The notes under the pieces were generated by a model that saw nothing but the letters and a program-made list of their open reading frames with translations, searched no databases and had not been told where the DNA came from. DNA of 64,000 bases from the human T2T-CHM13v2.0 reference genome, Homo sapiens. Shown piece after piece: positions 1 to 61,139 of the stretch. The stretch lies in assembly GCF_009914755.1 (NCBI RefSeq), contig NC_060933.1; one strand, 5' to 3'. Made by a program: the position numbers and the translations under genes. Numbering within the stretch: the first letter of the stretch is position 1; every line of letters begins with the position of its first letter.

Positions 1-719
1 CCGGAAGATTCCATTCCATTGCATTCCATTCCATGCCATTCCCCTGCACTCGCTTTGATTCCATTCCATTCCATTCCATTCCATTCCATTCCATTCCGTT
101 CCGTTCTATTCCATTCCATTCCATTCTATTCGGGTTAATTCCATTCCATTCCATTCGATTGCAATCGTGTTGATTCCATTCCATTGCATTCCATTCCATT
201 CCATTCCATTCCATTCCATTCCTTTCCATTCCATTACGGATGATTCCATTCCATTGCATTCCATTCCATTCCATTCCCCTGTACTCGGGTTGATTCCATT
301 CCATTGCATTCCAATCCATGCCCTTCCACTCGTGTTGATTCCATTCTTTCCATTCCATTCAAGTTGAATCCATTCCATTGCATTCCATTCCATTCGATTC
401 CATTCGATTGCACTCGGGTTGATTCCATTCTATTGCATTCCATTCCATTCCATTCCATTCCATTCCATTCCATTCCGTTCCATTCCATTCCATCACATTC
501 GGATTGATTCTATTCAATTCCCTTACACTCCATTACATTTCGTTCCATTCGGGTAGTTTCCATTCCATTCCATTCCATTCCTCTCCATTCCATTGCACTC
601 GGGTTGATTGCATTCCATTGCATTCCATTCCATTCCATTCAATTCCATTCCATTCCATTCCATTTCATTCTATTCCATTGTACTCGGGTTGATTCCATTC
701 CATTGCATTCCATTCCATT

Positions 720-36600: not shown

Positions 36601-38189
36601 CCATTCCATTCCATTCCCTTCCATTCCACTCTGGTTGATTCCATTCCTTTCCATTCCAATCGAATACATTCCCTCCTATTCCACTCGGATCGATTCCATT
36701 CCATTCCATTCCATTCCATTCCATTCCATTCCATTCCATTCCATTCCATTTCGTTCCATTCCATTCTATTCCGTACCATTCCATTCCATTCCATTCCTTT
36801 CCATTCCATTCCATTCCATTCCACTCTTGTTGATTCCATTCCTTTCCATTCCATTCGGTTTGAAGGCATTCCATTCCATTCAATTCCATTCCATTCCATT
36901 CCATTCCATTCCATTCCATTCCATTGCATTGTACTCGGGTTGATTCCATTCCATTCCATTCCATTCCATTCCATTCCATTCCATTCCATTCCATTCCGTT
37001 GCATTCCATTCCATTACATTCGGACTGATTCTATTCAACTCCCTTACTCTCCATTACATTCCATTCCATTCGGATTGTTCCATTCCATTCCATTCCATTC
37101 CACTCCATTCCATTGTACTCGGGTTGATTCCATTCCATTCCATTCCATACCATTCCATTCCATTCCATTCCATTCCATTCCGTTCCATTCCGTTCCATTC
37201 CATTCCATTCCATTCTATTCGGGTTAATTCCATTCCATTCCATTCCATTCCATTCTATTCCATTCCATTGCAATCGAGTTGAATCCATTGCATTTCATGC
37301 CATTCCATTCCATTCCATTCCATTCCGGAAGATTCCATTCCATTGCATTCCATACCATTCCATTTCCCTGCACTCGCGTTGATTCCATTCCATTCCATTC
37401 CATTCCATTCCATTCCGTTCCGTTCCGTTCCATTCCATTCTATTCCATTCCATTGCATTCCATTCCGTTCCGTTCCATTCCATTCCATTACATTCTATTT
37501 GGGTTAATTCCATTCCATTCCATTCGATTGCAATCGAGTTGATTCCATTCCATTCCATTCCATTCCATTCCATTCCATTCCATTCCATTCCTTTCCATTC
37601 CATTACGGATGATTCCATTCCATTGCATTCCATTCCATTCCATTCCCCTGTACTCGGGTTGATTCCATTCCATTCCATTCCAATCCATGCCATTCCACTC
37701 GTATTGATTCCATTCTTTCCATTCCATTCAAGTTGAATCCATTCCATTGCATTCCATTACATTCGATTCCATTCGATTGCACTCGGGTTGATTCCATTCC
37801 ATTGTATTCCATTCCATTCCATTCCATTCCATTCCATTCCATTCCATTCCGTTCCATTCCATTCCATTACATTCGGATTGATTCTATTCAATTCCCTTAC
37901 ACTCCATTACATTCCATTCCATTCGGGTAGTTTCCATTCCATTCCATTCCATTCCTCTCCATTCCATTGCACTCGGGTTGATTCCATTCCATTGCATTCC
38001 ATTCGATACCATTCAATTCCATTCCGTTCCATTCCATTCCATTACATTCGGATTGATTCTATTCAACTCCCTTACTCTCCATTACATTCGATTCCATTCG
38101 GGTTGTTCCATTCCATTCCATTCCATTCCTCTCCTTTCCATTGCACTCGGGTTGATTCCATTCCATTCCATTCCATTCCGGAAGATTCC
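3148..38189. promoter_or_regulatory. Dispersed perfect 3-unit heat-shock elements nTTCnnGAAnnTTCn (about 25 copies, span given)
   Basis: aTTCcgGAAgaTTCc at 3148, 4435, 6403, 7241, 8269, 8349, 9076, 10958, 11093, 12661, 20639, 23885, 24723, 26266 (GAAtaTTC), 28063, 28412, 29250, 30103, 31142, 31640, 32533, 34705, 35908, 37322 and 38175. The motif match is direct; function is inferred. Confidence 0.55.
10896..11165 (+). repeat. 135-bp tandem duplication containing an HSE word
   Basis: gtactcgggtttatt at 10916/11051 and cccctgcactcgccttgatt at 11001/11136. Confidence 0.85.
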
Positions 38190-38439
38190 ATTCCATTGCA
38201 TTCCATTAAATTCCATTCCCCTGTACTCGCGTTGATTCCATTCCATTCCATTCCATTCCTTTGCATTCCATTGCATTCCATTGCATTCCATTCCCCTGCA
38301 CTCAGGTTGATTCCATTCCATTCCATTCCATTCCATTCTATTCGCGTTAATTCCATTCCACTCCATTCCATTACATTCCATTGCAATCGACTTGATTCCA
38401 TTCCATTCCATTCCATTCCATTCCATTCCATTCCATTCC

Positions 38440-41400
38440 ATTCCATTCCCTTCCATTCCACTCTGGTTGATTCCATTCCTTTCCATTCTACTCGATTGCA
38501 TTCCCTTCTATTCCACTCGGATTGATTCCATTGCATTCCGTTCCATTCCATTCCATTTCGTTCCATTCCATTCTATTCCATTCCATTCCATTCCATTCCT
38601 TTCCATTCCATTCCGTTCCATTCCATTCCATTCCATTCCATTTCTTTCCATTCCATTCTATTCCATACCATTCCATTCCATTCCGTTCCATGCCATTCCA
38701 CTCGGGTTGATTCCATTGCTTTCCATTCCATTTGGGTTGAATCCATTCCATTCCATTCCATTCCATTCCATTCCATTCCATTCCATTCCGTTCCATTCCA
38801 TTCCATTACATTCGTATTGATTGTATTCAATTCCCTTACACTCCATTACATTCCATTCCATTCGGGTTGTTTCCATTCCATTCCATTCCATTCCACTCCA
38901 TTCCATTGCAGTCGGGTTGATTCCATTCCATTCCATTCCATTCCCTTCCATTCCATTTCGTTCCATTCCATTCTATTCCATACCATTCCATTGCATTCCA
39001 TTCCATTCCATTCCATTCCATTCCATGCCATTCCACTCGGGTTGATTCCTTTCCATTCCATTCCATTCGGGTTGAAACCATTCCATTCCATTCAATTCCA
39101 TTCCATTTCGGATGATTGCATTCCATTGCCTTCCATTCAATTGCATTCCCCTGCACCCGGGTTGATTCCATTCAATTCCATTCCATTCCATTCCGTTCCA
39201 TTCCATTCCATACCATTCCATTCCATTCCATTCCATTCTATTTGGGTTAATTCCATTCCATTCCATTCCATTCCATTCAGTTTCATTGCAATCGGGTTGA
39301 TTCCATTCCGTTCCATTCCATTGCATTCCATTCCATTCCATTTCATTCCATTCCATTCCATTCCATTCAACTCTGGTTGATTCCATTCCTTTCCATTCCA
39401 TTCGGGGTGAAGCCTTTCCATTCCATTCCATTCCTTTCGATTCCATTCCATTGCACTCGGGTTGATCCCATTCCTTTGCATTCCATTCCATTCCATTCCA
39501 TTCCATTCCATTCCATTCCATTCCATTCCATTCCTTTCCATTCAATTCCATTACATTCGGATTGATTCTATTCAATTCCCTTAGAATCCATCACATTCCA
39601 TTCCATTCGGGTTGTTTCCATTCCTTTCGATTCCATTCAATTCCATTCCATTCCATTCCATTCCGTATGATTCCATTCCATTGCATTCTATTCCATTCCA
39701 TTCCCCTGCACTCGGGTGGATTCCATTCTATTCCATTCCATTCCATTCCATTCCATTCCATTCCATTCCATTCCATTCCATTGAAATCGAGTTGATTCCA
39801 TTCCATTCCATTCCATTCAATTCCATTCCATTCCATTCTATTCTGGTTAAATCCATTCCATTCCATTCCATTCCCTTCCATTCCATTCCATTCTATTCCA
39901 TTCCATTCCATTCTATTAGGGTTAATTCCATTCCATTCCATTCCATTCCATTCCATTCCATTCCATTGCAATCGAGTTGATTCCATTCCATTCTATTCCA
40001 TTCCATTCCATTCAATTCCATTGAACTCGGGTTGATTCCATTCCATTCCATGCCATTCCATTTCATTCCAATCCATTGCCTTCCATTCCATTCCATTCCT
40101 CTGCACTCGGGTTGATTCCATTCCTTTCCATTCCATTCCATTCCATTCCATTCCATTGAAATCGAGTTGATTCCATTCCATTCCATTCCATTCAATTCCA
40201 TTCCATTCCATTCTATTCGGGTTAATTCCATTCCATTCCATTCCATTCCCTTCCATTCCATTCCATTCTATTCCATTCCATTCCATTCTATTAGGGTTAA
40301 TTCCATTCCATTCCATTCCATTCCATTCCATTACATTCCATTGCATTCCTTTGCAATCGAGTTTATTCCATTCCATTCCATTCCATTCCATTCCATTCAA
40401 TTCCATTGAACTCGGGTTGATTCCATTCCATTCCATGCCATTCCATTTCATTCCAATCCATTGCCTTCCATTCCATTCCATTCCTCTGCACTCGGGTTGA
40501 TTCCATTCCTTTCCATTCCATTGGATTCCATTCCATGCCATTCCACTCGGGTTGATTCCATTACTTTCCATTCCATTCGAGTTGAATCCATTCCATTCGA
40601 TTCCATTCCATTCGATTCCATTCCATTGCTCACGGGTTCATTCCATTCCATTCCATTCCATTCCATTCTATTCCATTTCATTCCATTTCGTTCCATTCCA
40701 TTCTCTTCCGTACCATTCCATTCCATTCCATTCCACTCCATTCCATGCCATTCCACTCGGGTTTATTCCATTCCTTTCCATTCCATTCGGGTTGAATTCA
40801 TTCCATTCCATTCCATTCCATTCCATTCCATTCCATTGCACTCGGGTTGATTCCATTCCATTCCATTCCATTCCACTCCATTCCATTGCACTCGGGTTGA
40901 TTCCATTCCTTTCCATTCCATTCCAGTTGAACCCATTCCATTCTATTCCATTCCATTCCATTCCATTCCATTCCATTCCATTCCATTCCTTTGCACACGG
41001 GTTCATTCCATTCCATTCCATTCCATTCCATTCCATTCCATTCCATTTCGTTCCATTCCATTCTATTCCTTACCATTCCATTCCATTCCATTCCCTTCCA
41101 TGCCATTTCACTCGGGTTTATTCCATTCCTTTCCATTCCATTCCATTCCGTTCCATTCCATTCCATTCCATTCTGTTCAGGTTAATTCCATTCCATTCCA
41201 TTCCCTTCCATTCCATTCCATTCCATTCCATTCCATCCAATTGCAATCGAGTTGATTCCATTGAATTCCATTCCATTCCATTCCATTCCATTGCATTCCA
41301 TTCCATTAGATTCCATTCCATTGCTTTCCATTCCATTCCATTCCCCTGCACTCAGATTGATTCCATTCCATCCCATTCCATTCCATTCCGTTCCATTCCA

Positions 41401-44400
41401 TTCCATTCCTTTCTATTCGCGTTAATTCCATTCCATTCCATTACATTCCATTGCAATCGAGTTGATTCCATTCCATTCCGTTCCATTCCATTCCATTCCA
41501 TTCCATTTCGTTCCATTCCATTCTATTCCGTACCATTCCATTCCATTCCATTCCATTCCATTCCATTCCATTCCATGCCACTCCACTCGGGTTGATTCTA
41601 TTGCTTTCCATTCCATTTGGGTTGAATCCAATCCATTCCATTCCATTCCATTCCATTCCATTCCATTGCACTAGGTTTGATTCCATTCCACTGCATTCCA
41701 TTCCATTCCATTCTGTTCCATTCCATTCCATTACATTCGGATTGATTGTATTCAATTCCTTACACTCCATTACATTGCATTCCATTCGGGTTGTTTCCAT
41801 TCCATTCCATTCCATTCCATTCCATTCCATTGCACTCAGGTTGATTCCATTCCATTCCATTCCATTCCATTCCATTCCATTCCATTCCATTCCATTCCAT
41901 TCCATTCCATTTCGTTCCATTCCATTCTATTCCGTACCATTCCATTCCATTCCATTCCATTCCATTCCATGCCATTCCACTCGGGTTTATTCCATTCCTT
42001 TCCATTCCATTCGGGTTGAATCCATTCCATTCCATTCCATTCGATTCCATTCCATTCCATTGCACTCGGGTTGATTTCATTCCATTCCCTGCCGTTCCAT
42101 TTCATTCCATTCCATTCCATTCCATTGCATTCCATTCCATTCCGTTCCATTCCATTCCATTACATTCGGATTGATTGTATTCTATTCCCTTACACTCCAT
42201 TACATTCCATTCCATTCGTGTTGTTTCCGTTCCATTTCATTCCCTTCCACTCCATTCCATTGTACTCGGGTTGATTCCATTCCATTCCATTCCATTCCAT
42301 GCCAATCCACTCGGGTTTATTCCATTCCTTTCCATTCCACTCGGGTTGAATCCATTCCATTCCATTCCATTCCATTCCATTCCATTCCATTCCCCTGCAA
42401 TCGGGTGGATTCCATTCTATTCCATTCCATTCCTTTCCATTCCATTCCATTCCATTCCATTTCGTTCCATTCCATTCTATTCCGTACCATTCCTTTCCAT
42501 TCCATTCCATTCCATTTCATGCCATGCCATTCCACTCGGGTTGATTCCATTCCTTTCCATTCCATTCTAGTTGAATCCATTCCATTGCATTCCATTCCAT
42601 TCGATTCCATTCAATTGCACACGGGTTCATTCCATTCCATTCCATTCCATTCCATTCCATTTCGTTCCATTCCATTCTATTCCGTATCATTCCCTTCCAT
42701 TCAATTCCATTCCACTCCATTCCATGCCATTCCACTCGGGTTTATTCCATTCCCTTCCATTCCATTCGGGTTGAATCCATTCCATTCCATTCCATTCCAT
42801 TCCATTCCATTCCATTCCATGATATTCCACTCGGGTTGATTCCATTCTTTTCCATTCCATTCGAGTTGAACCCATTCCATTCCATTCCATTCCATTCCAT
42901 TCCATTCCATTCCATTCCATTCCACTCGGGTTGATTCCATTCCTTTCCATTCCATTCGGGTTGAAACCATTCCATTCCATTCCATTCCTTTCGATTCCAT
43001 TCCATTTCACTCGGGTTGATCCCATTCCATTGCATTCCATTCCATTCCATTGCATTCCATTCCGTTCCATTCTATTCCATTACATTCGTATTGATTCTAT
43101 TCAATTCCCTTACTCTCCATTACATTCCATTCCATTCGGGTTGTTTCCATTCCATTCCATTCCATTCCACTCCATTCCATTGCACTCGGGTTGATTCCAT
43201 TCCATTCCATTGCATTCCATTCCATTTCATTCCATTCCATTCCATTCCATTCCATTCCGTATGATTCCATTCCATTGCATTCCATTCCATTCCATTCCAC
43301 TGCACTCGGTTGGATTCCATTCTATTCCATTCCATTCCATTCCATTCCATTCCATTCCATTCCATTCTATTCGGGTTAATTTCATTCCATTCCCTTCCAT
43401 TCCATTCCATTCCATTCCATTCCATTGAAATCGAGTTGATTCCATTCCATTCCATTCCATTCCATTCCATTCCATTCTATTCGTGTTAATTCCATTCCAT
43501 TCCATTCCATTCCATTCCCTTCCATTCCATTCCATTCCATTCCATTCCATTCTATTAAGGTTAATTCCATTCCATTCCATTCCATTCCACTCCATTCCAT
43601 TCCATTCCACTCCATTCCATGCCATTCCACTCGGGTTTATTCCATTCCTTTCCATTCCATTCGGGTTGAGTACTTTCCATTCCATTGCATTCCATTCCAT
43701 TCCATTCCATTCCATGCCATTGCACTCGGGTTGATTCCATTCCTTTCCATTCCATTCGAATTGAACCCATTCCATTCCCTTCCATTCCATTCCATTCCAT
43801 TCCATTCCATTGCTCACGGGTTCATTCCATTCCATTCCATTCCATTCCATTCCATTCCATTTCGTTCCATTCCATTCTACTCCGTACCATTCCATTCCAT
43901 TCCATTCCCTTCCATGCCATTTCACTCGGGTTTCTTCCATTCCTTTCCATGCCATTCGGGTTGAATCCATTCCATTCCATTCCATTCCATTCCATTGCGC
44001 TCGGGTTGATTCCATTCCATTCTATGCCATTCCATTTCATTCCGTTCCATTCCATTCCATTCCTTTCCATTCCTTTCCTTTCAATTCCAATCCATTGCAT
44101 TCGGATTGATTCTTTTTAATTCCCTTACACTCCATTACATTCCATTCCATTCGGGTACTTTCCATTCCATTCCATTCCATTCCACTGCATTCTATTGCAC
44201 TCGGGTTGATTGATTCCATTAGATTGCATTCCATTCCATTCCATTCCCCTGCACTCGGGTTGATCCCATTCCATTGCATTCCATTCCATTCCGTTCCATT
44301 CCATTCCATTCCATTCTGTTCACGTTAATTCCATTCCATTCCATTCCATTCCATTCCATTCCATTCCATTCCATCCCATTGCAATCTAGTTGATTCCATT

Positions 44401-44800
44401 GCATTCCATTCCATTCCATTCCATTCCATTCCCCTGCACTCAGATTGATTCCATTCCATCCCATTCCATTCCATTCCGTTCCATTACATTCCATTCCATT
44501 CTATTCGCGTTAATTCCATTCCATTCCATTCCATTACATTCCATTGCAATCGAGTTGATTCCATTCCATTCCGTTCCATTCCATTCCATTTCGTTCCATT
44601 CCATTCTATTCTGTACCATTCCATTCCATTCCATTCCATTCCATTCCATGCCATTCCACTCGGGTTGATTCCGTTGCTTTCCATTCCATTTGGGTTGAAT
44701 CCAATCCATTCCATTCCATTCCATTCCATTCCATTCCATTCCATTCCATTCCATTGCACTAGGTTTGATTCCCTTCCGCTGCATTCCATTCCATTCCATT
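38440..44800 (+). repeat. Left arm of an imperfect multi-kb inverted repeat (pairs with ~46400-51020)
   Basis: Private variants are mirrored in the right arm: ttcggggtgaagcctttcc 39401 vs 49969, gcacccggg 39153 vs 50222, 1-bp deletion ttcaattccttacact 41751 vs 49017, tctttttaat and cgggtactttcc 44111-44162 vs 47171-47224, gcaatctagttg 44381 vs 46862. Confidence 0.8.
39775..40520 (+). repeat. ~375-385 bp tandem duplication in the inner domain
   Basis: ttgaaatcgagttg 39781/40156, ctattagggttaatt 39913/40288, ttgaactcggg 40021/40406, cctctgcactc 40098/40483. Confidence 0.8.
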
Positions 44801-45170
44801 CCATTCCGTTCCATTCCATTCCATTCCATTCCATTTCTTTCCATTCCATTCCATTCTATTCCATGCCATTCCACTCGGGTTTATTCCATTCCTTTCCATT
44901 CCACTCGGGTTGATTCCATTCTATTAGTTTCCATTCCATTCCATTCCATTCCATTCCCCTGCACTCGGGTTGATCCCATTCCATTGCATTCCATTCCATT
45001 CCATTCCATTCCATTCCGTTCCATTCCATTTCATTCCATTCTCTTCAGCTTAATTCCATTCCATTCCATTCCCTTCCATTCCGTTCCATTCCATTCCATT
45101 ACATTCGGATTGATTGTATTCAATTCCCTTACACTCCATTCCATTCCATTCCATTCGGGTTGTTTCCATT

Positions 45171-45200
45171 CCATTCCATTCCGTGTGCAATGGAATGGAA
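45171..45200. other. Satellite inversion breakpoint (C-rich to G-rich switch) with 2-bp CC overlap at 45181-45182
   Basis: Sequence reads ...ccattccatt CC gtgtgcaatggaatggaa... ORF 44765..45391 switches from IPFHS to MEWNG repeats here. An intact donor context, atgaacccgtgtgcaatgg...tgggttcaact, is seen at ~51476-51580. Confidence 0.95.
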
Positions 45201-46399
45201 TGGAATGGAATGGAATGGAATGGGTTCAACTAGAATGGAATGGAAAGGAATGGAATCAACCCGAGTGGAATGGCATGGAATGGAATGGAATGGAATGGAA
45301 TGGAATGGAAAGCAATGGAATGAAATGGAATGGAAGGGAATGGATTGAAATGGAATGCGAATGGAATGGAATCAACCCGAGTGCAATGTAATGGAATTGA
45401 ATGGAATGGAATGGAATGCAATGGAATGAGTTCAACCCGAATGGAATGGAAAGGAATGGAATAAACCCGAGTGGAATGGCATGGAATGGAGTGGAATGGA
45501 ATGGAATGGAATACTACGGAAGAGAATGGAATGGAACGAAATGGAATGGAATGGAATGGAATGGAATGGAATGGAATGGAATGAACACGTGAGCAATTGA
45601 ATGGAATCGAATGGAATAGAATGGAATGGAATGGATTCAACTCGAATGGAATGGAAAGGAATGGAATCAACCCGAGTGGAATGGCATGGAATGGAATGGA
45701 ATGGAATGGAACGGAATGGAATGGAATCAACTCGATTGCAAAGGAATGTAATGGAATGGAATGGAACGGAATTAACGCAAATAGAATGGAATGGAAAGGA
45801 ATGGAACGGAATGGAATGGAAAGAAATGGAATGGAATCAATCTGAGTGCAGGGGAATGCAATGGAATGGAATGCAATGGAATGGAATGGAATGGAATGCA
45901 ATGGAATCACCTCGATTGCAATGGGATGGAATGGAATGGAATGGAATGGAAGGGAATGGAATGGAGTGGAATTAACCTGAACAGAATGGAATGGAATGGA
46001 ATGGAATGGAATGGAATGCAATGGAATGGAATCAATCAACCCGAGTGCAATAGAATGCAGTGGAATGGAATGGAATGGAATGGAATGGAATGGCAGGGAA
46101 TGGAATGAAATGGAATGGCAGGGAATGGAATGGAATCAACCCGAGTGCAAAGGAATGGAATGGAATGGAATGGAATGGAATGGAATGGAATGGAATGGTA
46201 CGGAATAGAATGGAATGGAAAGTAATGGAATGGAATGGAATGGAATGGAATGGAATCAACCTGAGTGCAATGGAATGGAGTGGAATGGAATGTAATGGAA
46301 TGGAAAAAACCCGAATGGAATGGAATGTAATGGAGTGTAAGGGAATTGAATACAATCAATCCGAATGTAATGGAATGGAATGGAACGGAATGGAATGGA

Positions 46400-49300
46400 A
46401 CGGAATGCAGTGGAATGGAATCAAACCTAGTGCAATGGAATGGAATGGAATGGAATGGAATAAAATGGAATGGAATGGAATGGAATGGAATGGAATGGAT
46501 TGGATTCAACCCAAATGGAATGGAAAGCAATGGAATCAACCCGAGTGGAATGGCATGGAATGGAATGGAATGGAATGGAATGGAATGGAATGGAATGGTA
46601 CAGAATAGAATGGAATGGAATGAAATGGAATGGAATGGAATGGAATGGAATGGAATGGAACGGAATGGAATGGAATCAACTCGATTGCAATGCAATGTAA
46701 TGCAATGGAATGGAATGGAATTAACGCGAATAGAATGGAATGGAATGTAATGGAACGGAATGGAATGGAATGGGATGGAATGGAATCAATCTGAGTGCAG
46801 GGGAATGGAATGGAATGGAATGCAATGGAATGGAATGGAATGGAATGGAATGCAATGGAATCAACTAGATTGCAATGGGATGGAATGGAATGGAATGGAA
46901 TGGAAGGGAATGGAATGGAATGGAATTAACCTGAACAGAATGGAATGGAATGGAATGGAACGGAATGGAAGGGAATGGAATGGAATGGAATTAAGCTGAA
47001 GAGAATGGAATGAAATGGAATGGAACGGAATGGAATGGAATGGAATGGAATGGAATGCAATGGAATGGGATCAACCCGAGTGCAGGGGAATGGAATGGAA
47101 TGGAATGCAATGGAATGGAATCAATCAACCCGAGTGCAATAGAATGCAGTGGAATGGAATGGAATGGAACGGAAAGTACCCGAATGGAAAGGAATGTAAT
47201 GGAGTGTAAGGGAATTAAAAAGAATCAATCCGAATGTAATGGAATGGAAGGGAACGGAATGGAATGGAATGGAATGGAATGGAATGGAATGGAATGAAAT
47301 GGAATGGCATGGAATGGAATGGAATCAACCTGAGTTCAATGGAATGGAATGGAATGGAATGGAATGGATTCAACCCGAATGGAATGGAAAGGAATGGAAT
47401 AAACCCGAGTGAAATGGCATGGAAGGGAATGGAATGGAATGGAATGGTAAGGAATAGAATGGAATGGAACGAAATGGAATGGAATGGAATGGAATGGAAT
47501 GGAATGAACCCGTGTGCAATGGAATGGAATGGAATGGAATGGAATGGAATGGAATGGAATGGAATGGAACGGAATAGAATGGAATGGAACGAAATGGAAT
47601 GGAATGAAATGGAATGGAATGGAATGGAATGGAATGGAATCAACCCGAGTGCAGGGGAATGGAATGGAATTGAAGGCAATGGAATGGAATCATATGGAAT
47701 TGAATGGAATGGAATGGAATCAAATCGATTGCAATGGAATGGAATGGAATGGAATGGAATGGAATGGAATGGAATGGAATGGAATGGAATTAACCCGAAT
47801 AGAATGGAATTGAATGGAATGGAATGTATTGGAAGTAAATGGAATGGAATGTAATGAGCGCGAGGGCAGGGGAATGGAATGGAATGGAATGCAATGGAAT
47901 TGAGTCATCCGGAATGGAACAGAAAGGAATGGAATGGAATCAACCCGTGTGCAATGGAATGGAAAGGAATGGAATGGAATGGAATGGAATGGAAAGGATT
48001 CAACCCGCATGGAATGGAAAGGAAGGGAATCAACCCAAGTGGAATGGCATGGAATGGAATGGAATGGAATGGAATGGAATGGTACCGAATAGAATGGAAT
48101 GGAACGAAATGGAATAGAATGGAATGGAATGGTATGGAAACAACCCGAATGGAATGGAATGAAATGGACTGTAAGGGAATTGAATACAATCAATCCGAAT
48201 GTAATGGAATGGAATGGAACGGAATGGAATGGAATGGAATGGAATGCAGTGGAATGGAATCAAACCTAGTGCAATGGAATGGAATGGAATGGAATGGAAT
48301 GGAATGGAATGGAATGGATTCAACCCAAATGGAATGGAAAGCAATGGAATCAACGTGAGTGGAATGGCATGGAATGGAATGGAACGGAATGGAATGGAAT
48401 GGAATGGAATGGAATGGAATGGAATGGTACGGAATAGAATGGAATGGAACGAAATGGAATGGAATGGAATGGAATGGAACGGAAAGGAATGGAATCAACT
48501 CGATTGCAATGGAATGCAATGGAATGGAATGGAATGCAATTAAAGCGAATAGAATGGAATGGAATGGAACGGTATGGAATGGAATGGAATGGAATGGAAT
48601 CGAATGGAATCAACCTGAGTGCAGGGGAATGGAATGGAATGGAATGCAATGGAATGTAATGGAATGGAATGCAATGGAAACAACTCGATTGCAATGGAAT
48701 GGAATGGAATGGAATGGAAGGAAAGGAATGGAATGGAATTAACCTGAACAGAATGGAATGGAATGGAATGGAACGGAATGGAATGGAATGGATTCAACCC
48801 GAATGGAATGGAAAGGAATGGAATAAACCCGAGTGGAATGGCATGGAATGGAATGGAATGGAATGGAATGGTACGGAATAGAACCGAATGGAACGAAATG
48901 GAATGGAATGGAATAGAATGGAATGGAATGGAATGCAGTCAACCTGAGTGCAATGGAATGGAATGGAATGGAATGGAACGGAATGGAAACAACCCGAATG
49001 GAATGGAATGTAATGGAGTGTAAGGAATTGAATACAATCAATCGGAATGTAATGGAATGGAATGGAACGGAATGGAATGGAATGGAATGCAGTGGAATGG
49101 AATCAAACCTAGTGCAATGGAATGGAATGGAATGGAATGGAATGCAATGGAATGGATTGGATTCAACCCAAATGGAATGGAAAGCAATAGAATCAACCCG
49201 AGTGGAATGGCATGGAATGGAATGGAATGGAATGGAATGGAATGGAATGGAATGGTACGGAATAGAATGGAATGGATCGAAATGGAATGGAATGGAATGG

Positions 49301-51020
49301 AATGGAACGGAATGGAATGGAATCAACTCGATTGCAATGGAATGTAATGGAATGGAATGGAATGGAATGGAATTAACGCGAATAGAATGGAATGGAATGG
49401 AATGGAAAGGAATGGGATGGAATGGAATCAATCTGAGTGAAGGGGAATGGAATGGAATGGAATGCAATGGAATGGAATCATCCGGAATGGAATGGAATGG
49501 AATGGAATGGAATGGAATGGAATTAACACGAATAGAATGGAATGGAATGGAATGGAATGGAATGGAATGGAATGGAATGGAATGGAATGGAATGGAATCA
49601 ACTCGATTTCAATGGAATGGAATGGAACGGAATGGAATGGAATGGAATGGAATGGAATGGAATGGAATAGAATGGAATCCACCCGACTGCAGGGGAATGG
49701 AATGGAATAGAATGCAATGGAATGGAATCATACGGAATGGAATCGAATGGAATGGAATGGAATGGAATGGAATGGAATGGAATGGAAACAACCCGAATGG
49801 AATGGAATGTGATGGAGTGTAAGGGAATTGAATAGAATCAATCCGAATGTAATGGAATTGAATGGAACGGAATGGAATGGAAAGGAATGTAATGGAATGG
49901 AATGGAATGCAATGGAATGGGATCAACCCGAGTGCAATGGAATGGAATCGAAAGGAATGGAATGGAATGGAAAGGCTTCACCCCGAATGGAATGGAAAGG
50001 AATGGAATCAACCCGAGTGGAATGGAATGGAATGGAATGGAATGGAATGGAATGGAATGCAATGGAATGGAACGGAATGGAATCAACCCGATTGCAATGA
50101 AATTGAATGGAATGGAATGGAATGGAATGGAATTAACCCGAATAGAATGGAATGGAATGGAATGGAATGGTATGGAATGGAATGGAACGGAATGGAATGG
50201 AATGGAATTGAATGGAATCAACCCGGGTGCAGGGAATGCAATTGAATGGAAGGCAATGGAATGCAATCATCCGGAATGGAATGGAATGGAATGGAATGGA
50301 ATGGAATGGTTTCAACCCGAATGGAATGGAATGGAATGGAATCAACCCGAGTGGAATGGCATGGAATGGAATGGAATGGAATGGAATGGAATGGAATGGA
50401 ATGGTATGGAATAGAATGGAATGGAACGAAATGGAATGGAAGGGAATGGAATGGAATGGAATGGAATCAACCCGACTGCAATGGAATGGAGTGGAATGGA
50501 ATGGAATGGAATGGAAACAACCCGAATGGAATGGAATGAAATGGAGTGTAAGGGAATTGAATACAATCAATACGAATGTAATGGAATGGAATGGAACGGA
50601 ATGGAATGGAAAGGAATGGAATGGAATGCAGTGGAATGGAATCAATCCTAGTGCAATGGAATGGAATGCAATGGAATGGAATGGAATGGAATGGAATGGA
50701 ATGGAATGGAATGGATTCAACCCAAATGGAATGGAAAGCAATGGAATCAACCCGAGTGGAATGGCATGGAACGGAATGGAATGGAATGGTATGGAATAGA
50801 ATGGAATGGAAAGAAATGGAATGGAATGGAATGGAATGGAACGGAGTGGAATGGAAAGGAATGGAATGGAATGGAATGGAATAGAATGGAATGGAACGAA
50901 ATGGAATGGAATGGAACAGAATGGAATGGAATCAATCAGAGTGGAATAGAAGGGAATGCATTCGAGTAGAATGGAAAGGAATGGAATCAACCAGAGTGGA
51001 ATGGAAGGGAATGGAATGGA
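46400..51020 (-). repeat. Right arm of an imperfect multi-kb inverted repeat (pairs with ~38440-44800)
   Basis: The same diagnostic variants occur in reverse-complement and in reversed order. The arms contain unshared blocks, e.g. 47640-48130 has no left counterpart that I could find. Confidence 0.8.
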
Positions 51021-54000
51021 ATGGAAACTAATAGAATGGAATCAACACGAGTGGAATGGAATGGAAAGGACTGGAATGGAATGGAATGGAATGGAATGGA
51101 ATGGAATGGAATCAACTCGATTGTAATGGAATGGAATGGAATGGAACGGAATAGAATGGAATGGAATGTAATGGAGTGTAAGGGAATTAAAAAGAATCAA
51201 TACGAATGTAATTGAATGGAATGGAACGGAATAGAATGGAATGGAATGGAATGGAATGGAATGAAATGGAATGGCATGGAATGGAATGGAATCAACCCGA
51301 GTGCAATGGAATGGAATCGAATGGAATGGAAGGGAATGGAATGGATTGAACCCGAATGGAATGGAAAGGAATGGAATAAACCCGAGTGGAATGGCATGGA
51401 ATGGAATGGAATGGAATGGAATGGTACGGAATAGAGTGGAAAAAAACGAAATGGAATGGAATGGAATGGAATGGAATGAACCCGTGTGCAATGGAATGGA
51501 ATGGAATGGAATGGAATGGAATGGGTTCAACTCGAAAGGAATGGAAAGGAATGGAATCAACCCGAGTGGAATGGCATGGAATGGAATGGAATGGAATGGT
51601 ATGGAATGGAATGGAGTGGAATGGAATGGAATGGAATGGAATGGAATGGAATGAACCCAACTGTAATGTAATGGAATCGAATGGAATGGAATGGAATGGA
51701 ATGGATTCAACCCAAATGGAATGGAAAAGAATGGAATCAACCCGAGTGGAATGGCATGGAATGGACTGGAATGGAATGGAATGGAATGGAATGGTACGGA
51801 ATAGAATGGAATGGAACGAAATGGAATGGAATGGAATGGAATGGAATGGAATGGAATGAACCCGTGTGCAATGGAATGGAATCGAATGGAATGGAATGGA
51901 ATGCAAAGGATACAACTCGAATGGAATGGAAAGGAATGAAATCAACCCGAGTGGAATGGCATGGACTGGAATGGAATGGAATGGCATGGAATGGAATGGA
52001 ATTGAATGGTACGGAATAGAATCGAATGGAACGAAATGGAATGGAATGGAATGGAATGGAATGGAATGGAAACAACCCGAGTGCATGGTAATGGAATGGA
52101 ATGGAAGGCAATGGAATGGAATCATCCGGAATGGAATGGAATGGAATGGAATGGAATGGAATGGAATGGAATGGAATGGAATGGAATCAACTCGATTGAA
52201 ATGGAATGGAATGGAATGGAATGGAATGGAATTAACCCGGATAGAATCGAATGGAATGGAATGGAATGGAATGGAATGGAATGGAATGGAAGGGAATGGA
52301 ATGTAATGGAATGGAATGGAATTAACCCGAATAGAATGGAATGGAACAGAAAGGAAGGGAATGGAATGGAATGTAATCAACTCCAGTGCAGGGGAATGCA
52401 ATGGAATGCAATGAAATGGAATGGAGTCATACGGAATGGAAGGGAATGGAATGGAATAAACCAGAGTGCAATGGAATGGAGTGGAATGGAATGGAATAGA
52501 ATGGAAACAACACGAATGGAATAGAATGTAATGGAGTGTAAGGGAATTGAATATAATCAATCCGAATGTAATGGAATGGAACGGAAAGGAATGGAATGGA
52601 ATGGAATGGAATGGAATGGAATGGAATGGAATGAAATGGAATGGCATGGAATGGAATTGAATCAACCCGAGTTCAATGGAATTGAATGGAATGGAATGGA
52701 ATGGAATGGAATGGAATCAACTCGATTGCAATGGAATGGAATGGAATGGGATGGAATGGAATGGAATGGAATTAACCCTAATAGAATGGAATGGAATGGA
52801 ATGGAATGGAAAAGAATGGAATGGAAGGGAATGGAATGGAATGGAATGGAATGGAATTAACCCGAGTTCAATGGAATTGAATGGAATGGAATGGAATGGA
52901 ATGGAATGGAATCAACTCGATTGCAATGGAATGGAATGGAATGGGATGGAATGGAATGGAATGGAATGGAATGGAATTAACCCTAATAGAATGGAATGGA
53001 ATGGAATGGAATGGAATAGAATGGAATGGAAGGGAATGGAATGGAATGGAATGGAATTAACCCGAATAGAATGGAATGGAATGGAATGGAATGGAATGGA
53101 ATCAACTCGATTTCAATGGAATGGAATGGAATGGAATGGAATGCAATGGAAGGGAATGGAATGGAATGGAATGAAATTAACCCGAATATAATGGAATGGA
53201 ATGGAATGGAATGGAATGGAATGGAATAGAATGGAATCCACCCGAGTGCAAGGGAATGGAATGGAATGGAATGCAATGGAATGGAATCATACGGAATGGA
53301 ATGGAATGGAATGGAATGCAATGGAATGGAATGGAATCACCCGATTGAAATGGAATGGAGTGGAATGGAATGGAATGGAATGGAAACAACCCGAAAGGAA
53401 TGGAATGTAATGGAGAGTAAGGGAATTGAATAGAATCAATACGAATGTAATGGAATGGAATGGAACGGAATGGAATGCAATGGAATGGAATGGAATGCAA
53501 TGGAATGGGATCAACCCGATTGAAATGGAATGGAATCGAAAGGAATGGAATGGAATGGAATGGTTTCAACCCGAATGGAATGGAAAGGAATGGAATCAAC
53601 CCGAGTGGAATGCAATGGAATGGAATGGAATGGAATGGGTTCAACTCGAATGGAATGGAAAGGAATGAAATCAACCCGAGTGGAATGGCATGGAATGGAA
53701 TGGAATGGAATGGAAGGGAATGGAATGGAATGGAATTAACCTGAAGAGAATGGAAGGGAATGGAATGGAACGGAACGGAATGGAATGGAATGGAATGGAA
53801 TGGAATGGAATGCAATGGAATGGGATCAACCCGAGTACAGGGGAATGGAATGCAATGGAATGCAATGGAATGGAATCATCCCGAATGGAATGGAATGGAA
53901 TGGAATGCAATGGAATGGAATCAATCAACCCGAGTGCAATAGAATGCAGTGGAGTGAAATGGAATGGTATGGAAACTACCCGAATGGAATAGAATGTAAT

Positions 54001-57000
54001 GCAGTGTAAGGGAATTAAAAAGAATCAATCCGAATGTAATGGAATTGAATGGAACGGAATGGAAAGGAATGGAATGGAATGGAATGGAACGGAATTAACC
54101 CGAATAGAATGGAAAGGAATGGAATGGAATGGAATGGAATGGAATGGAATGGAATGGAACGGAAAAGAATGGAATGGAACGAAATGGAATGGAATGAAAT
54201 GGAATGGAATGGAATGGAATGGAATGGAATGGAATGGAATGGAATCAACCCGAGTGCAGGGGAATGGAATGGAATTGAAGGCAATGGAATGGAATCATCC
54301 GGAATTGAATGGAATGGAATGGAATCAACTCGATTGCAATGGAATGCAATGGAATGCAATGGAATGGAATGGAATGGAATGGAATGGAATGGAATGGAAT
54401 GGAAGTAAATGGAATGGAATGTAATGAACCCGAGGGCAGGGGAATGGAATGGAATGGAATGCAATGGAATGGAGTCATCCGGAATGGAACAGAATGGAAT
54501 GGAATGGAATCAACCCGTGTGCAATGGAATGGAAAGGAATGGAATGGAATGGAATGGAATGGAATGGAACGGAATGGATTCAACCCGAATGGAATGGAAA
54601 GGAAGGGAATCAACCCAAGTGGAATGGCATGGAATGGAATGGAATGGAATGGAATGGAATGGTACCGAATAGAATGGAATGGAACGAAATGGAATAGAAT
54701 GGAATGGAATGGTATGGAAACAACCCGAATGGAATGGAATGAAATGGAGTGTAAGGGAATTGAATACAATCAATCCGAATGTAATGGAATGGAATGGAAC
54801 GGAATGGAATGGAATGGAATGGAATGCAGTGGAATGGAACCAAACCTACTGCAATGGAATGGAATGGAATGGAATGGAATGGAATGGAATGGAATGGAAT
54901 GGAATGGATTCAACCCAAATGGAATGGAAAGCAATGGAATCAACCCGAGTGGAATGGCATGGAATGGAATGGAACGGAATGGAATGGAATGGAATGGAAT
55001 GGAATGGAATGGAATGGTACGGAATAGAATGGAATGGAACGAAATGGAATGGAATGGAATGGAATGGAACGGAAAGGAATGGAATGGATTCAACTCGAAT
55101 GGAATGGAAAGGAATGGAATCAACCCGAGTGGAATAGCATGGATTGGAATGGAAAGGAATGGAATGGAATGGTACGGAATAGAGTGGAATGGAACGAAAT
55201 GGAATCGAATGGAATGGAATGGAATGGAATGGAATGGAATGGAACGGAATCAACCCGAGTGCAGGGGAATGGAGTGGAATGGATGCAATGGAATGGAATC
55301 ATCCGGAATGGAATGGAATGGAATGGAATGGAATGGAATGGAATGGAATGGAATCAACCTGAGTGCAGGGGAATGGAATGCAATGGAATGCAATGGAATG
55401 GAATGGAATGGAATGCAAAGGAAACAACTCGATTGCAATGGAATGGAATGGAATGGAATGGAATGGAATGGAATGGAATGGAATGGAATTAACCTGAACA
55501 GAATGGAATGGAATGGAATGCAATGGAACGGAATGGAATGGAATGGAATGGAATGGAATCAACCCGAGTGCAGGGGAATGGAATGGAATGGAATGCAATG
55601 GAATGGATTCATCCGGAATGGAATGGAATGGAATGGAATGCAATGGAATGGAATCAATCAACCCGAGTGCAATGCAATGGAGTGGAATGGAATGGAATGG
55701 AACGGAAACTACCCGAATGGAATGGAATGTAATGGAGTGTAAGGGAATTGAAAAGAATCAATCCGAATGTAATGGAATGGAATGGAACGGAATGAAATGG
55801 AATGGCATGGAATGGAATGGAATCAACCCGAGTTCAATGGAATGGAATTGAACGGAATGGAATGGAAAGGAATGGATTCAACCCGAATGGAATGGAAAGG
55901 AATGGAATGGAATGGAATGGAATGGTACGGAATAGAATAGAATGGAAAGGAATGGAATGGAATGGAATGAAATGGAATGGAATGGAATGGAATGGACCCG
56001 TGTGCAATGGATTCGAATGGAATGGAATGGAATGGAATGGAATGGAATGGAATGGAATGGAATGGTTTCAACTCGAATGGAATGGAAAGGAATGGAATCA
56101 ACCCGAGTGGAATGGCATGGAATGGAATGGAATGGAATGGAATGGAATGGAAAGGAATGGAATAGAATGAAATGGAATGGAATGGAATGGAATGGAAACA
56201 ACACGAGTGCAATGTAATGGAATCGATTGGAATGGAATTGAATGGATAGGAATGGATTCAATCCGAATGGAATGGAAAGGAATGGAATAAACCCGAGAGG
56301 AATAGCATGGAATGGAGTGGAATGGAATGGAATGGAATGGAATGGTATGGAATAGAATGGAATGGAACTAAATGGAATGGAATGGAATGGAATGGAATGG
56401 AATAGAATGAACCCGTGTGCAATGGAATGGAATCGAATGGAATGGAATGGAATGGAATGGATTCAACTCGAATGGAATGGAAAGGAATGGAATCAACCCG
56501 AGTGGAATAGCATGGATTGGAATGGAAAGGAATGGAATGGAATGGTACGGAATAGAGTGGAATGGAACGAAATGGAATGGAATGGAATGGAATGGAATGG
56601 AATGGAATGGAGTGGAATGGAATGGAATCAACCCGAGTGCAGAGGAATGGAGTGGAATGGAAGGCAATGGAATGGAATCATCCGGAATTGAATGGAATGG
56701 AATGGAATGGAATGGAATCAACTCGATTGAAATGGAATGGAATGGAATGGAATGGAGTGGATGGGAATGGAATGGAATGTAATGAACCCGAGTGCAGGGG
56801 AATGGAATGGAATGGAATGCAATGGAATGGAGTCATCCTGAATGGAACGGAATGGAATGGAATGGAATCAACCCGTGTGCAATATAATGGAATCGAAAGG
56901 AATGGAATGGAATGGAATGGATTCAACCCAAATGGAATGAAAAGGAATGGAATAAACCCGAGTGGAATGGCATGGAATGGAGTGGAATGGAATGGAATGG

Positions 57001-60000
57001 AATAGTACAGAATAGAATGGAACGGAATGAAATGGAATGGAATGGAATGGAATGGAATGGAATGGAATGGAATGGAACGGAATGCAATGGAATGGAATGG
57101 AATGGAATGGAATGGAATGAACCCGTGTGCAATGGAATGGAATGGAATGGAATGGGTTCAACACTAATTGAATGCAAAGGAATGGAATCAACACGAGTGG
57201 AATGGCATGGAATGGAATGGAATGGAATGGAATGGAATGGAATGGAGTGAAATGGAATGGAATGGAATGAAATGGAATGGAATGGAATGGAATGGAATCA
57301 ACCTGAGTGCAGTGTAATGGAATCGAATGGAATGGAATGGAATGGAATGGATTCAACACGAATGGAATGGAAAGGAATGGAATAAACCCGCGTGGAATGG
57401 CATGGAATGGAGTGGAATGGAATGGAATGGAATGGAATGGAATCAACCCGAGTGCAATGTAATGGAATCGAATGGAATGGAATGGAATGGAATGGATTCA
57501 ACCCGAATGGAATGGAAAGGAATGGAATAAACCCGAGTGGAATGGCATGGAGTGGAGTGGAATGGAATGGAATGGAATGGAATGGAATCGTACGGAATAG
57601 AATGGAATGGAACGAAATGGAATGGAATGGAATGGAATGGAATGGAATGGAATGAACCCGTGTGCAATGGAATGGAATCGAATGGAATGGAATGGATTGG
57701 AATGGATTCAACTCGAATGGAATGGAAAGGAATGGAATCAACCCGAGTGGAATGGCATGGCATGGAATGGAATGGAATGGAATGGAATGGAATGGAATGG
57801 AATGGAATGGTACGGAATAGAATGGAAAGGAACGAAATGGAATGGAATGAAATGGAATGGAATGGAATGGAACGGAATGGAATGGAATGGAATGGAACGG
57901 AATCAACCCGAGTGCAGGGGAATGGAATGGAATTGAAGGCAATGGAATGGAATCATCCGGAATTGAATGGAATGGAATGGAATCAACTCGATTGCAAAGG
58001 AATGGAATGGAATGGAATGGAATGGAATGGAATGGAATGGAATGGAATGGAATGGAATTAACCCGAATAGAATGGAATGTAATGGAATGGAAGTAAATGG
58101 AATGGAAGGTAATGAACCCGAGTGCAGGGGAATGGAATGGAATGGAATGCAATGGAATGGAGTCATCCGGAATGGAAAGGAAAGGAATGGAATGGAACCA
58201 ACCCGTGTGCAATGGAATTGAAAGGAATGGAATGGAATGGAATGGAATGGAATGGATTGGAATGGAATGGAATGGAATGGAATGGATTCAACCCGAATGG
58301 AATGGAAAGGAAGGGAATCAACCCAAGTGGAATGGCATGGAATGGAATGCATTGGAATGGAATGGAATGGAATGGTACCGAATGGAATAGAATGGAATGG
58401 TACCGAATAGAATGGAATGGAACGAAATGGAATGGAATGGAATGGAATGGAATGGAATGAACCCGTGTGCAATGGATTGGAATGGAATGGAATGGAATGG
58501 AATGGAATGGAATGGGTTCGACTCGAATGGAACGGAATGGAATGAAATCAAACCTAGTGGAATGGCATGGAATGGAATGGAATGGAATGGAATGGAATGG
58601 AATGGAAACAACACGAGTGCAATGTAATGGAATCGAATGGAATGGAATGCAATGGATTCAACCCGAATGGAATGGAAACGAATGGAATAAAACCGAGTGG
58701 AATGGCATGGAATGGAGTCTAATGGAATGGAATGGAATGGAATGTTATGGAATAGAATGGAATGGAACGAAATGGAATGGAATGGAACGGAATGAAATGA
58801 ACCCGTGTGCAATGGAATGGAATGGAATGGAATGGAATGGAATGGATTCAACTTGAATGGAATGGAAAGGAATGGAATCAACCCGAGTGGAATGGCATGG
58901 AATGGAATGGAATGGAATGGAATGGAATGGAATTAACCCGAATGGAATGGAATGGAATGGAATGGAATGGAATGGAATGGAAGGAAATGGAATGGAATGG
59001 AATGGAATGGAATGGAATGGAATGGAATGGAATGGAATGGTAGCGAATAGAATGGAATGGAACGAAATGGAATGGAATGGAATGGAATGGAATGGAATGG
59101 AATGGAATGGAATCAACCCGAGTGCAGGGGAATGGAATGGAATGGAAGGCAATGGAATGACATCATTCGGAATTGAATGGAATGGAATGGAATGGAATGG
59201 AATCAACTCGATTGAAATGGAATGGAATGGAATGGAATGGAATGGAATGGAATGGAATGGAAGTGAATGGAATGGAATGTAATGAAACCGAGTGCAGGGG
59301 AATGGAATGGAATGGAATGCAATGGAATGGAGTCATCCGGAATGGAACGGAATGGAATGGAATGGAATCAACCCGAGTGCAATGGAATGGAGAGGAATGG
59401 AATGGAATGTAATGGAATGGATTCAACCTGAATGGAATGGAAAGGAATGGAATCAACCCGAGAGGAATGGCATGGAATGGAATGGAATGGAATGTAATGG
59501 AATGGAATGGAGTGGAATGGTACAGAATAGAATGTAATGGAACGAAATGGAATGGAATGGAATGGAATGGAATGGAATGGAATCATTCCGAGTGGAATAG
59601 AAGGGAATGTTTTCGAGTGGAATGAAAAGGAATGGAATCAACCAGAGTGGAATGGAATGGAATCGAGTGGAATGGAATGCAATCGAATGGAATGGAAAGC
59701 AATAGAATGGAATCAACCCGAGTGGAATGGAATGGAAAGGACTGGAATGGAATGGAATGGAATGCAATGGAATGAAATCGATTGCAATGAAATGGAATGG
59801 AATGGAATGGAATGGAATGGAATGGAATTAACCGGAATAGAATGGAATTGAATGGAATGGAAAGGAATGGAATGGAATAGAATGGAATGGAATGGATTCA
59901 ACTCGAATGGAATGGAAAGGAATGGAATCAACCCGAGTGGAATGGCATGGAATGGAATGGAATGGAATGGAATGGAATGGAAACTACCCGAATGGAATGG

Positions 60001-61139
60001 AATGTATTGGAGTGTAAGGAAATTGAATAGAATCAATCCGAATGTAATGGAATTTAATGGAACGGAATGGAATGGAATGGAATGGAATGGAATGGAATGG
60101 AATGCAATGGAATGGAATCAACCCGAGTGCAATCGAATGGAATTGAATGGAATGGAATGCAATGGAATAGATTCAACTTGAATGGAATGGAAAGAATGGA
60201 ATCAACACGAGTGGAAGGGCATGGATTGGAATGCAATGGAATGGAATCAACCCGAGTACAGGGGAATGGAATGGAATGGAATGCAACGGAATGGAATCAT
60301 CCGTAATGGAATGGAAAGGAATGGAATGGAATGGAATGGAATGGAATCAACACGATTGCAATCGAATGGAAAGGAATGGAATTAACCCGAATAGAATGGA
60401 ATCGAATGGAATGGAATGAAATGGAATGGAATGGAATGGAATGGAATGGTATGGAATGGAATGCAATGGTACGGAATAGAATGGAATGGAACGAATTGTA
60501 ATGGAATGGAATTGAATGGAATGGAATGGAATGGAATGGAATCAACGCGAGTGCAGAGGAATGTAATGGAACGGAATGCAATGGAATGGAATCATCCGGA
60601 ATGGAATGGAATGGAATGGAATGGAATGGAATGGAATCAACCAGAGTGCAATGGAATGGAATGGAATGGAATGGAACAACCCGAATGGAATGGAATGTAA
60701 TGGAGAGTAAGGGAGTTGAATAGAATCAATCCGAATGTAATGGAATGAAATGCAACGGAATGGAATGGAATGGAATGGAATGGAATGGAATGGAATGCAA
60801 ATGAATGGAATGAACCCGAGTGGAATGGCATGGAATTGAATGCAATGGATTGGAATGGAATGGAATCAACTCGAGTGGAAAGGAATGGAATGGAATGGAA
60901 AGGAATGGAATGAAGTCAACTCTAGTGGAATGGAATGGAATGGAATGGATTGGAATGGATTGCAATGGAATGAAATGAAATGGAATGGAATGGAATCAAT
61001 CATGGAAGGGAATGTAATGGAGTGGAAAGAAGGGAATGGAATCAACACGAGTGGAATGCAAGGCAATGGAATGGAATGGAAAGGAATGGAATGGAATCAA
61101 CTCGATTGCAATGGAATGGAATGGAATGGAATGGAATGG

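What the first reader, a model, noticed from the sequence alone, without database searches (positions are those of the whole stretch)
38250..59960. Mirror zonation A-B|B-A: a distinct, probably older satellite layer surrounds the inversion
Seen: dialect A occupies 1-~38.2 kb and returns inverted from ~60 kb. Dialect B occupies ~7 kb left and ~15 kb right of the junction. Homologous words differ systematically: A has ccatgccattccactcgtgttgattccattctttccattccattcaagttgaatcc, whereas B has ccatgccattccactcgggtttattccattcctttccattccattcgggttgaatcc. B is closer to the decamer consensus, keeps phase, and has more private substitutions between copies. Inference: the inversion sits in an ancestral layer preserved because homogenising unequal exchange is impeded at an orientation switch, while dialect A expanded on both sides. 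This would resemble layered expansion of alpha satellite.
Basis: partly seen in the sequence, partly recalled or inferred. Interest (0 to 1): 0.7.

Follow-up and report, generated by a model that had tools for sequence, protein, structure and literature searches.

The report
One old satellite junction, copied 85-fold
In the huge chromosome 9 satellite block, the point where the repeat flips direction in this window recurs 85 times along the block with a distinct, likely older repeat variant beside it, and five such junction types mark 199 flips, so most flips were likely copied rather than made anew.

Summary
The A-B|B-A zonation is real. Dialect B starts sharply at 38,230-38,250, the strand switch lies at about 45,180, and B fades at 58.8-60.0 kb. 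The switch is not a local, one-off inversion. Its junction word occurs 85 times in the genome, all at chr9 52.3-76.4 Mb. B follows this junction family (H1): 10 of 10 sampled copies have B 5 kb away on at least one side, while 18 of 20 distant tiles are A. Four other junction families, one of the same polarity, sit in A, so a switch as such does not come with B. Together the five motifs mark 199 of at least 219 switches. B also lies at the array's proximal edge with no H1 nearby, and shares the diagnostic word with outer chr9 and chr5 HSat3, so it is likely older; whole-tile distances do not confirm this. Best reading: one inversion arose in B and was copied with its flanks while A expanded. 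The switches are published; I did not find their descent from few founders in 10 searches, but key texts were unavailable.

The parts
1..38230 (+). HSat3 dialect A, CATTC on + strand; the majority dialect of the chr9 array
   Evidence: A word 8269 exact copies genome-wide; 18 of 20 tiles far from H1 are A
38230..38250 (+). sharp A-to-B border; the same border recurs in the previous cassette at about chr9:62.197 Mb
   Evidence: held-out classifier; collinear chains
38250..45180 (+). dialect B, left (short) arm of the cassette, about 6.9 kb
45177..45197 (.). strand-switch junction of family H1 (CATTC-strand to GAATG-strand); 80 exact 21-mer copies, 85 copies of a 29-mer at up to 2 mismatches, all chr9 52.3-76.4 Mb, both orientations
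45190..59950 (-). dialect B, right (long) arm, about 14.8 kb, with internal direct duplications
50040..51150 (-). inverted homologue of 38,430-39,340 and of an A-type word at 36,520-36,660; holds the A-like islet
58800..60040 (-). mosaic B-to-A transition
60000..64000 (-). dialect A, inverted

Best explanation
The window holds one of 85 copies of a single strand-switch junction (H1) of the chromosome 9q12 HSat3 array; it likely arose once inside an older dialect (B) and was likely copied with its B flanks as part of larger duplicated blocks while dialect A expanded. Shown: the junction's copy number and place, B beside H1, A beside the four other junction families, B at the proximal array edge, and alternation of head and tail families. 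Inferred steps: (1) B is the earlier layer; (2) one break or template switch joined two B positions of opposite strand, at 2 bp of microhomology; (3) A arose and spread, and junctions H2, T1, T2 and T3 formed later inside A; (4) blocks with one head and one tail junction were duplicated in tandem and in both orientations, up to the 8.76 and 10.6 Mb duplications; (5) unequal exchange between direct repeats trims or lengthens each B arm (0.6 to about 55 kb) but cannot remove a lone junction, so B persists as a passenger next to it. No function is needed.
For: Junction clonal: 34 of 40 scored candidates match the 601-bp junction nearly full length at 89-100%; 80 exact and 85 near-exact motif copies, none off chr9, reversed-pattern control 0. 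B follows H1: previous copy has B about 8.6 kb left and about 28 kb right; 14 of 14 half-loci of 7 other copies B-dominant (picked by similarity, include twins); evenly spaced copies 12 B, 8 A of 20 tiles at 5 kb, 10 of 10 with B on at least one side, against 1 B, 18 A, 1 unclear of 20 tiles over 60 kb away; 65 of 65 listed B words in 52.0-53.33 Mb lie within 60 kb of H1, background 43%. Other families in A: T1 14 of 14 tiles, H2 5 of 6 tiles, H2 at 62,555,514 A on both sides, T2 and T3 one copy each read. Copied as a block: B is nearer to the neighbouring cassette (2.9 per 100 bp) than to itself (4.9). Five motifs (85+11+53+20+30 = 199) alternate head/tail at 178 of 198 neighbours, shuffles mean 99.5, max 126; their order repeats at offsets 8.76 and 10.62 Mb, in line with the published multi-megabase duplication (PMC9186530). 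B older.
Against: Polarity is not firm: token test p=0.29; tile tests p=0.20 and 0.19; outgroup sample only 8.6 kb; B has many private words of its own; no ape sequence tested. The 2.9 figure used a 36-kb reference and rises to 4.0 with 21 kb. Only 2 of 10 sampled H1 copies have B at 5 kb on both sides, so the mirror is often lopsided. One H2 tile leaned B (8:16) and one distant tile was B, 61.5 kb from an H1. At least 20 switches match none of the five motifs, and hidden pairs could raise the total. Copies are not independent because of the two large duplications. Microhomology rests on inferred parent words. Only the first 100 of 1228 B words were listed.
Confidence: 0.8

Rival explanations
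1. One reading: each orientation switch locally blocks homogenising exchange, so an ancestral layer survives around switches as such.
For: B does persist beside H1 in every copy looked at and at the true array edge, as an edge effect would give.
Against: H2 (same polarity) and T1-T3 lie in A; arms erode to 0.6-1.4 kb; a head switch between 49.6 and 50.0 Mb has A samples on both sides and no listed B word between 49.50 and 51.34 Mb; the 85 cases are one event copied.
Confidence: 0.08
2. B is not older than A: they are sister dialects of like age, and B owes its spread only to riding with H1.
For: Outgroup tiles are almost equidistant (outer chr9 9.9 to B vs 11.0 to A; chr5 11.6 vs 12.2; not significant); 17 of 20 B-enriched tokens are absent from the outgroups.
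Against: Order at the proximal edge is outer layer, B, then A; the A form is seen in none of 12 outgroup copies of the diagnostic word; A carries three times more phase shifts than B or the outgroups; B is more varied internally. This rival changes only step 1.
Confidence: 0.08
3. H1 is a hotspot: the same junction formed many times independently at a favoured B word, so B context causes the switch.
For: All five junction types fall at variant words with 2-5 bp inferred microhomology.
Against: Copies share about 600 bp of collinear flank on both sides at 89-100% and kilobases of collinear structure; a recurrent break would pair the word with different partners.
Confidence: 0.02
4. The junction and its B flanks are kept by selection, for example as a start or boundary for stress-induced satellite transcription or protein binding.
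For: The chr9 array is transcribed on heat shock (PMC11622622, passages); H1 makes up 85 of at least 109 head switches.
Against: No functional data here; arm length varies about a hundredfold; passive copying explains the counts.
Confidence: 0.02
5. Assembly artefact: the repeated junction comes from mis-resolved graph loops.
For: A twin 8,756,382 bp away is identical over 601 bp and gives the same scores over 3.6 kb; the region needed two traversals of a graph loop (PMC9186530).
Against: Most copies differ by 7-11%; hundreds of switches are seen in other assemblies.
Confidence: 0.01

Closest known systems
HSat3B5 array of 9q12 with over 200 inversion breakpoints (Altemose et al., bioRxiv 10.1101/2021.07.12.452052; subfamily from PMC4022460)
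   Same: The window lies in this array; my lower bound of 219 switches fits 'over 200'.
   Different: The passages I read count breakpoints but do not sort them into founder families or describe A/B dialects inside B5.
Population surveys of chr9 HSat3 strand switches (bioRxiv 10.64898/2026.07.22.740206; 10.64898/2026.09.03.749043)
   Same: Switch number scales with array length (r=0.90) and averages about 129 per haplotype, as copying of fixed junctions predicts.
   Different: The first calls them randomly distributed stochastic by-products of expansion; here 199 switches carry only five junction sequences.
Layered expansion of alpha satellite (same Altemose preprint, sections 8-9)
   Same: Works like it at the proximal edge: diverged outer layer, then B, then homogeneous A.
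   Different: In alpha satellite the new layer is central and old layers flank it once on each side. Here old sequence is in the centre of each local mirror, is repeated 85 times, and the distal edge does not mirror the proximal one. No kinetochore is involved.
[quoted passage not shown]
   Same: The junction order repeats at 8.76 and 10.62 Mb offsets; the window has an identical twin.
   Different: It explains about a doubling of part of the array, not 85 diverged copies.

Membership tests
Human satellite 3 (HSat3) | Tandem array derived from (CATTC)n | tested here: met
   TRF period 5 over the whole window, 73-74% matches
HSat3B5 (chr9) | Location in the large 9q12 array | tested here: met
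   window is C9:62,372,001-62,436,000; array label hsat3_9_3(B5) covers this place in PMC11622622
HSat3B5 (chr9) | Assignment by the published subfamily-specific 24-mer sets | not tested
   only the one representative 24-mer of PMC4022460 was seen; it is visible by eye in both A and B; the full k-mer sets were not run
Layered expansion (alpha-satellite type) | Older, more divergent layers lie outside a younger homogeneous layer | tested here: met
   proximal edge only: outer layer 49.07-49.12 Mb at 80-84% self identity, B at 49.19-49.33, A from 49.42
Layered expansion (alpha-satellite type) | Mirror symmetry of layers about the whole array | tested here: not met
   distal samples go from A (76.30-76.50 Mb) to unrelated diverged HSat3 (76.56-76.69 Mb) with no B in 7 samples
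Layered expansion (alpha-satellite type) | Age order confirmed by outgroup species or dated insertions | tested here: inconclusive
   in-genome outgroups favour B at the diagnostic word but not significantly overall; apes not available
Fold-back palindrome (inverted duplication) | Arms are reverse-complement copies centred on the junction | tested here: not met
   inverted matches have scattered centres; arms differ by 5.3 per 100 bp
Independent local inversion | Breakpoint sequence unique in the genome | tested here: not met
   80 exact, 85 near-exact copies

The most novel reading that the evidence does not exclude
Nearly all of the 200-plus strand switches of the largest human satellite array descend from five founder junctions, which can be ordered in time by the dialect around them: one born in the old B layer, four in the young A layer. 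The array grew by copying inverted macro-units of about 100-200 kb seeded on the B-flanked junction, and the junction string is a barcode that reads out its duplication history in any haplotype.
Probability: 0.7. Interest if true: 0.65.

Novelty: new variant of a known kind. Interest (0 to 1): 0.55.

Why it matters
The hundreds of strand switches in 9q12 were reported as a surprise and are still described as stochastic. If they are copies of five junctions, the array is not an inversion hotspot but a nested set of duplicated inverted units, which explains why switch number scales with array length. The five short motifs and two dialect words give alignment-free markers to align this hypervariable region between people and apes, to date its layers, and to test where stress-induced satellite transcripts start or fold back. 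It also gives a natural experiment on how homogenisation decays next to an internal boundary, with 85 replicate arms.

Tried and rejected
Fold-back palindrome: rejected. Unique local inversion: rejected. B at every switch: rejected. B only at switches: rejected. Overlapping k-mer polarity test favoured B strongly (15-mers: 42 of 206 vs 9 of 277 in outer chr9; 36 of 206 vs 14 of 277 in chr5), but overlapping k-mers are not independent; the non-overlapping versions were not significant, so the nominal p-values are not used. Single-strand folding of the junction (-64.5 vs about -5.5 kcal/mol for two controls) is a trivial result of inverted pentamers and is no evidence of function. Two 2-mismatch hits to the T2 motif were dropped from the 199. 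Supplement of PMC9186530 held only a coverage table for HSat3 (2 of 7 places seen). No protein, RNA-family or phage tool was used: the window is pure satellite. Dating in years was not attempted, for lack of a rate. Earlier findings of the scan were not seen.
Full report
Observation. The window is pure HSat3 with one strand switch near 45,180. k-mer PCA separates 38.2-59.9 kb from both flanks on PC1 at k=12, 16 and 24. A classifier trained on 200 kb upstream, not on the window, puts the left border at 38,230-38,250 and a mosaic right border at 58.8-60.0 kb. The quoted A and B words are mutually exclusive between zones (18:0 and 0:10). B has fewer phase shifts (0.57 vs 1.68 per kb), more singleton 16-mers (14.7% vs about 11%) and larger nearest-copy distance (4.9 vs 3.0-3.2 per 100 bp). 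The arms are not a palindrome about the junction.

The junction is a clone. A search of the own genome with 601 bp across the switch gave 34 near-full-length matches, the window included, among 40 scored of 4294 candidates, 89-100% identical, all on chr9. The 21-mer across the switch has 80 exact copies (33 +, 47 -) and a 29-mer has 85 at up to 2 mismatches, all at 52.3-76.4 Mb, reversed control 0. I call this family H1.

B follows H1, not switches in general. In 200 kb upstream the previous H1 copy again has B on both sides (about 8.6 and 28 kb), while the opposite-polarity switch at 62,283,770 lies in A. That switch is also clonal: 40 of 40 scored candidates match near full length, 53 motif copies (T1). 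Looking in three gaps where the two lists failed to alternate gave three more families: T2 (20 exact copies), H2 with the same polarity as ours (11 copies) and T3 (30 copies); each copy read lay in A. In 300-bp samples: over 60 kb from H1, 18 A, 1 B, 1 unclear of 20; 5 kb from 10 evenly spaced H1 copies, 12 B and 8 A of 20, B on at least one side in 10 of 10 and on both in 2 of 10; 2 kb from 7 T1 copies 14 of 14 A; 2 kb from 3 H2 copies 5 A and 1 B of 6. Held-out calibration: 188 A, 10 unclear of 198; 62 B, 4 unclear of 66. B arms range from about 0.6 kb and 1.4 kb to a span of about 55 kb of B words.

Five families cover most switches. 96 head and 103 tail motif hits alternate at 178 of 198 neighbours (10,000 shuffles: mean 99.5, max 126). 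Twenty same-class gaps imply at least 219 switches in 51.07-76.39 Mb, so the five families hold at most 91%; two more switches outside this span are implied by samples. The order of families repeats at offsets of 8.76 and 10.62 Mb, matching the recent multi-megabase duplication described by Nurk et al. (PMC9186530, passages). All five junctions fall at variant words with 2, 3, 5, 2 and 2-4 bp of inferred microhomology (H1, H2, T1, T2, T3); random opposite-strand joins reach 2 bp in 14% and 5 bp in 0.1% of cases, but the parent words are inferred.

Is B older? Of the first 100 of 1228 exact B words, 65 lie within 60 kb of H1, 26 at 49.19-49.50 Mb, 8 at 51.34-51.41 Mb and 1 at 48.50 Mb, none of these 35 near an H1. 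The A word (8269 copies) starts at 49.20 Mb and becomes dense after 49.34 Mb. Samples give, from the proximal edge: diverged layer leaning to B (49.07, 49.12), B (49.19, 49.26, 49.33), A (49.42-51.0), B (51.38), neither (51.80). The outer layer is 80-84% identical to itself and has relatives on chr5 and at chr9 48.5-48.8 Mb. In 8.6 kb of these outgroups none of 12 copies of the diagnostic word has the A form at any of its four differences; the second decamer and phase could be scored in 4 of the 12, all B. Outgroup phase shifts are 0.22 and 0.5 per kb, like B. Against this, non-overlapping tokens (3 of 20 vs 1 of 28, p=0.29) and tiles (17/13/9 and 17/17/6 closer to B/A/tie, with the A reference twice as long) are not significant, and B has private words. 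B is best taken as the earlier, more conservative layer, at about 0.75. From word densities my rough arithmetic gives about 3 Mb of B and 19-24 Mb of A.

Mechanism. Inferred: one inversion or template switch in B made H1; A arose and spread, and four younger junctions formed in it; head-plus-tail blocks (median spacing 84 kb between listed switches) were duplicated in both orientations; unequal exchange reshapes each arm but cannot delete a lone junction, so B rides along. B is nearer to the next cassette than to itself (2.9 vs 4.9 per 100 bp; 4.0 with a size-matched reference), as block copying predicts.

What is known. Altemose et al. preprint (passages and section 8): B5 array, over 200 breakpoints, layered expansion of alpha satellite. 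PMC4022460 (passages): subfamily B5. bioRxiv 10.64898/2026.07.22.740206 (passages): switch number correlates with array length, r=0.90, read as stochastic by-products. bioRxiv 10.64898/2026.09.03.749043 (passages): about 129 switches per haplotype. PMC11622622 (passages): heat-shock transcription of the array. PMC11526998 and PMC11661062 (passages): nothing on junction origin. Ten searches (listings only for other papers) showed no paper stating founder junction families or A/B dialects. The Science version, the 2022 review by Altemose and all bioRxiv supplements were not available, and could hold this result.

Verdict. Observation confirmed; interpretation partly supported; the more notable fact is that most strand switches of the array are copies of five junctions. 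New variant of a known kind; interest 0.55.

Noticed in passing
chr9 51.07-76.39 Mb: Five junction motifs mark 199 of at least 219 strand switches; their order is a barcode showing duplications at 8.76 and 10.62 Mb offsets, with one extra head-tail pair in the distal copy near 70.85 Mb.
   Followed up: yes
L001/L002 (C9:62,416,900 and 53,660,518); L020 junction and C9:53,538,678: Identical twins of both junctions about 8.75 Mb upstream, part of the known recent duplication or of its assembly consensus.
   Followed up: partly
L030, L031, L051 (C9:49.07-49.12 Mb); L049, L050 (C5:49.74, 49.86 Mb): An outermost diverged HSat3 layer whose best hits outside itself are on chr5 and at chr9 48.5-48.8 Mb, not in the main array.
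   Followed up: partly
L040 (C9:51.377 Mb): A one-strand B block of about 70 kb at 51.34-51.41 Mb with no H1 within 0.9 Mb.
   Followed up: partly
L041 (C9:51.80 Mb), L074 (C9:52.60 Mb): Tiles scoring as neither A nor B; possibly a third dialect, or low-information tiles.
   Followed up: no
L046-L048 (C9:76.62-76.69 Mb): Distal edge is a very different, GGAGT-rich HSat3; L048 holds two short copies of an Alu-like fragment (recognised from memory, not tested).
   Followed up: no
between L036 (49.60 Mb, +) and L037 (50.00 Mb, -); between L044 (76.50 Mb, +) and L045 (76.56 Mb, -): Head-type switches that match neither H1 nor H2.
   Followed up: no
C9:62.222-62.233 Mb: A 3.76-kb B unit, homologous to window 52.3-55.9 kb, is tandemly triplicated in the previous cassette: B still expands locally.
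   Followed up: partly
window A vs B: CpG density is higher in A (25.6 per kb) than in B (20.7) or the outgroups (18.5, 20.8).
   Followed up: no
L020:1763-1784: The T1 junction is a near-perfect 22-bp palindrome centred on the satellite's own decamer.
   Followed up: partly
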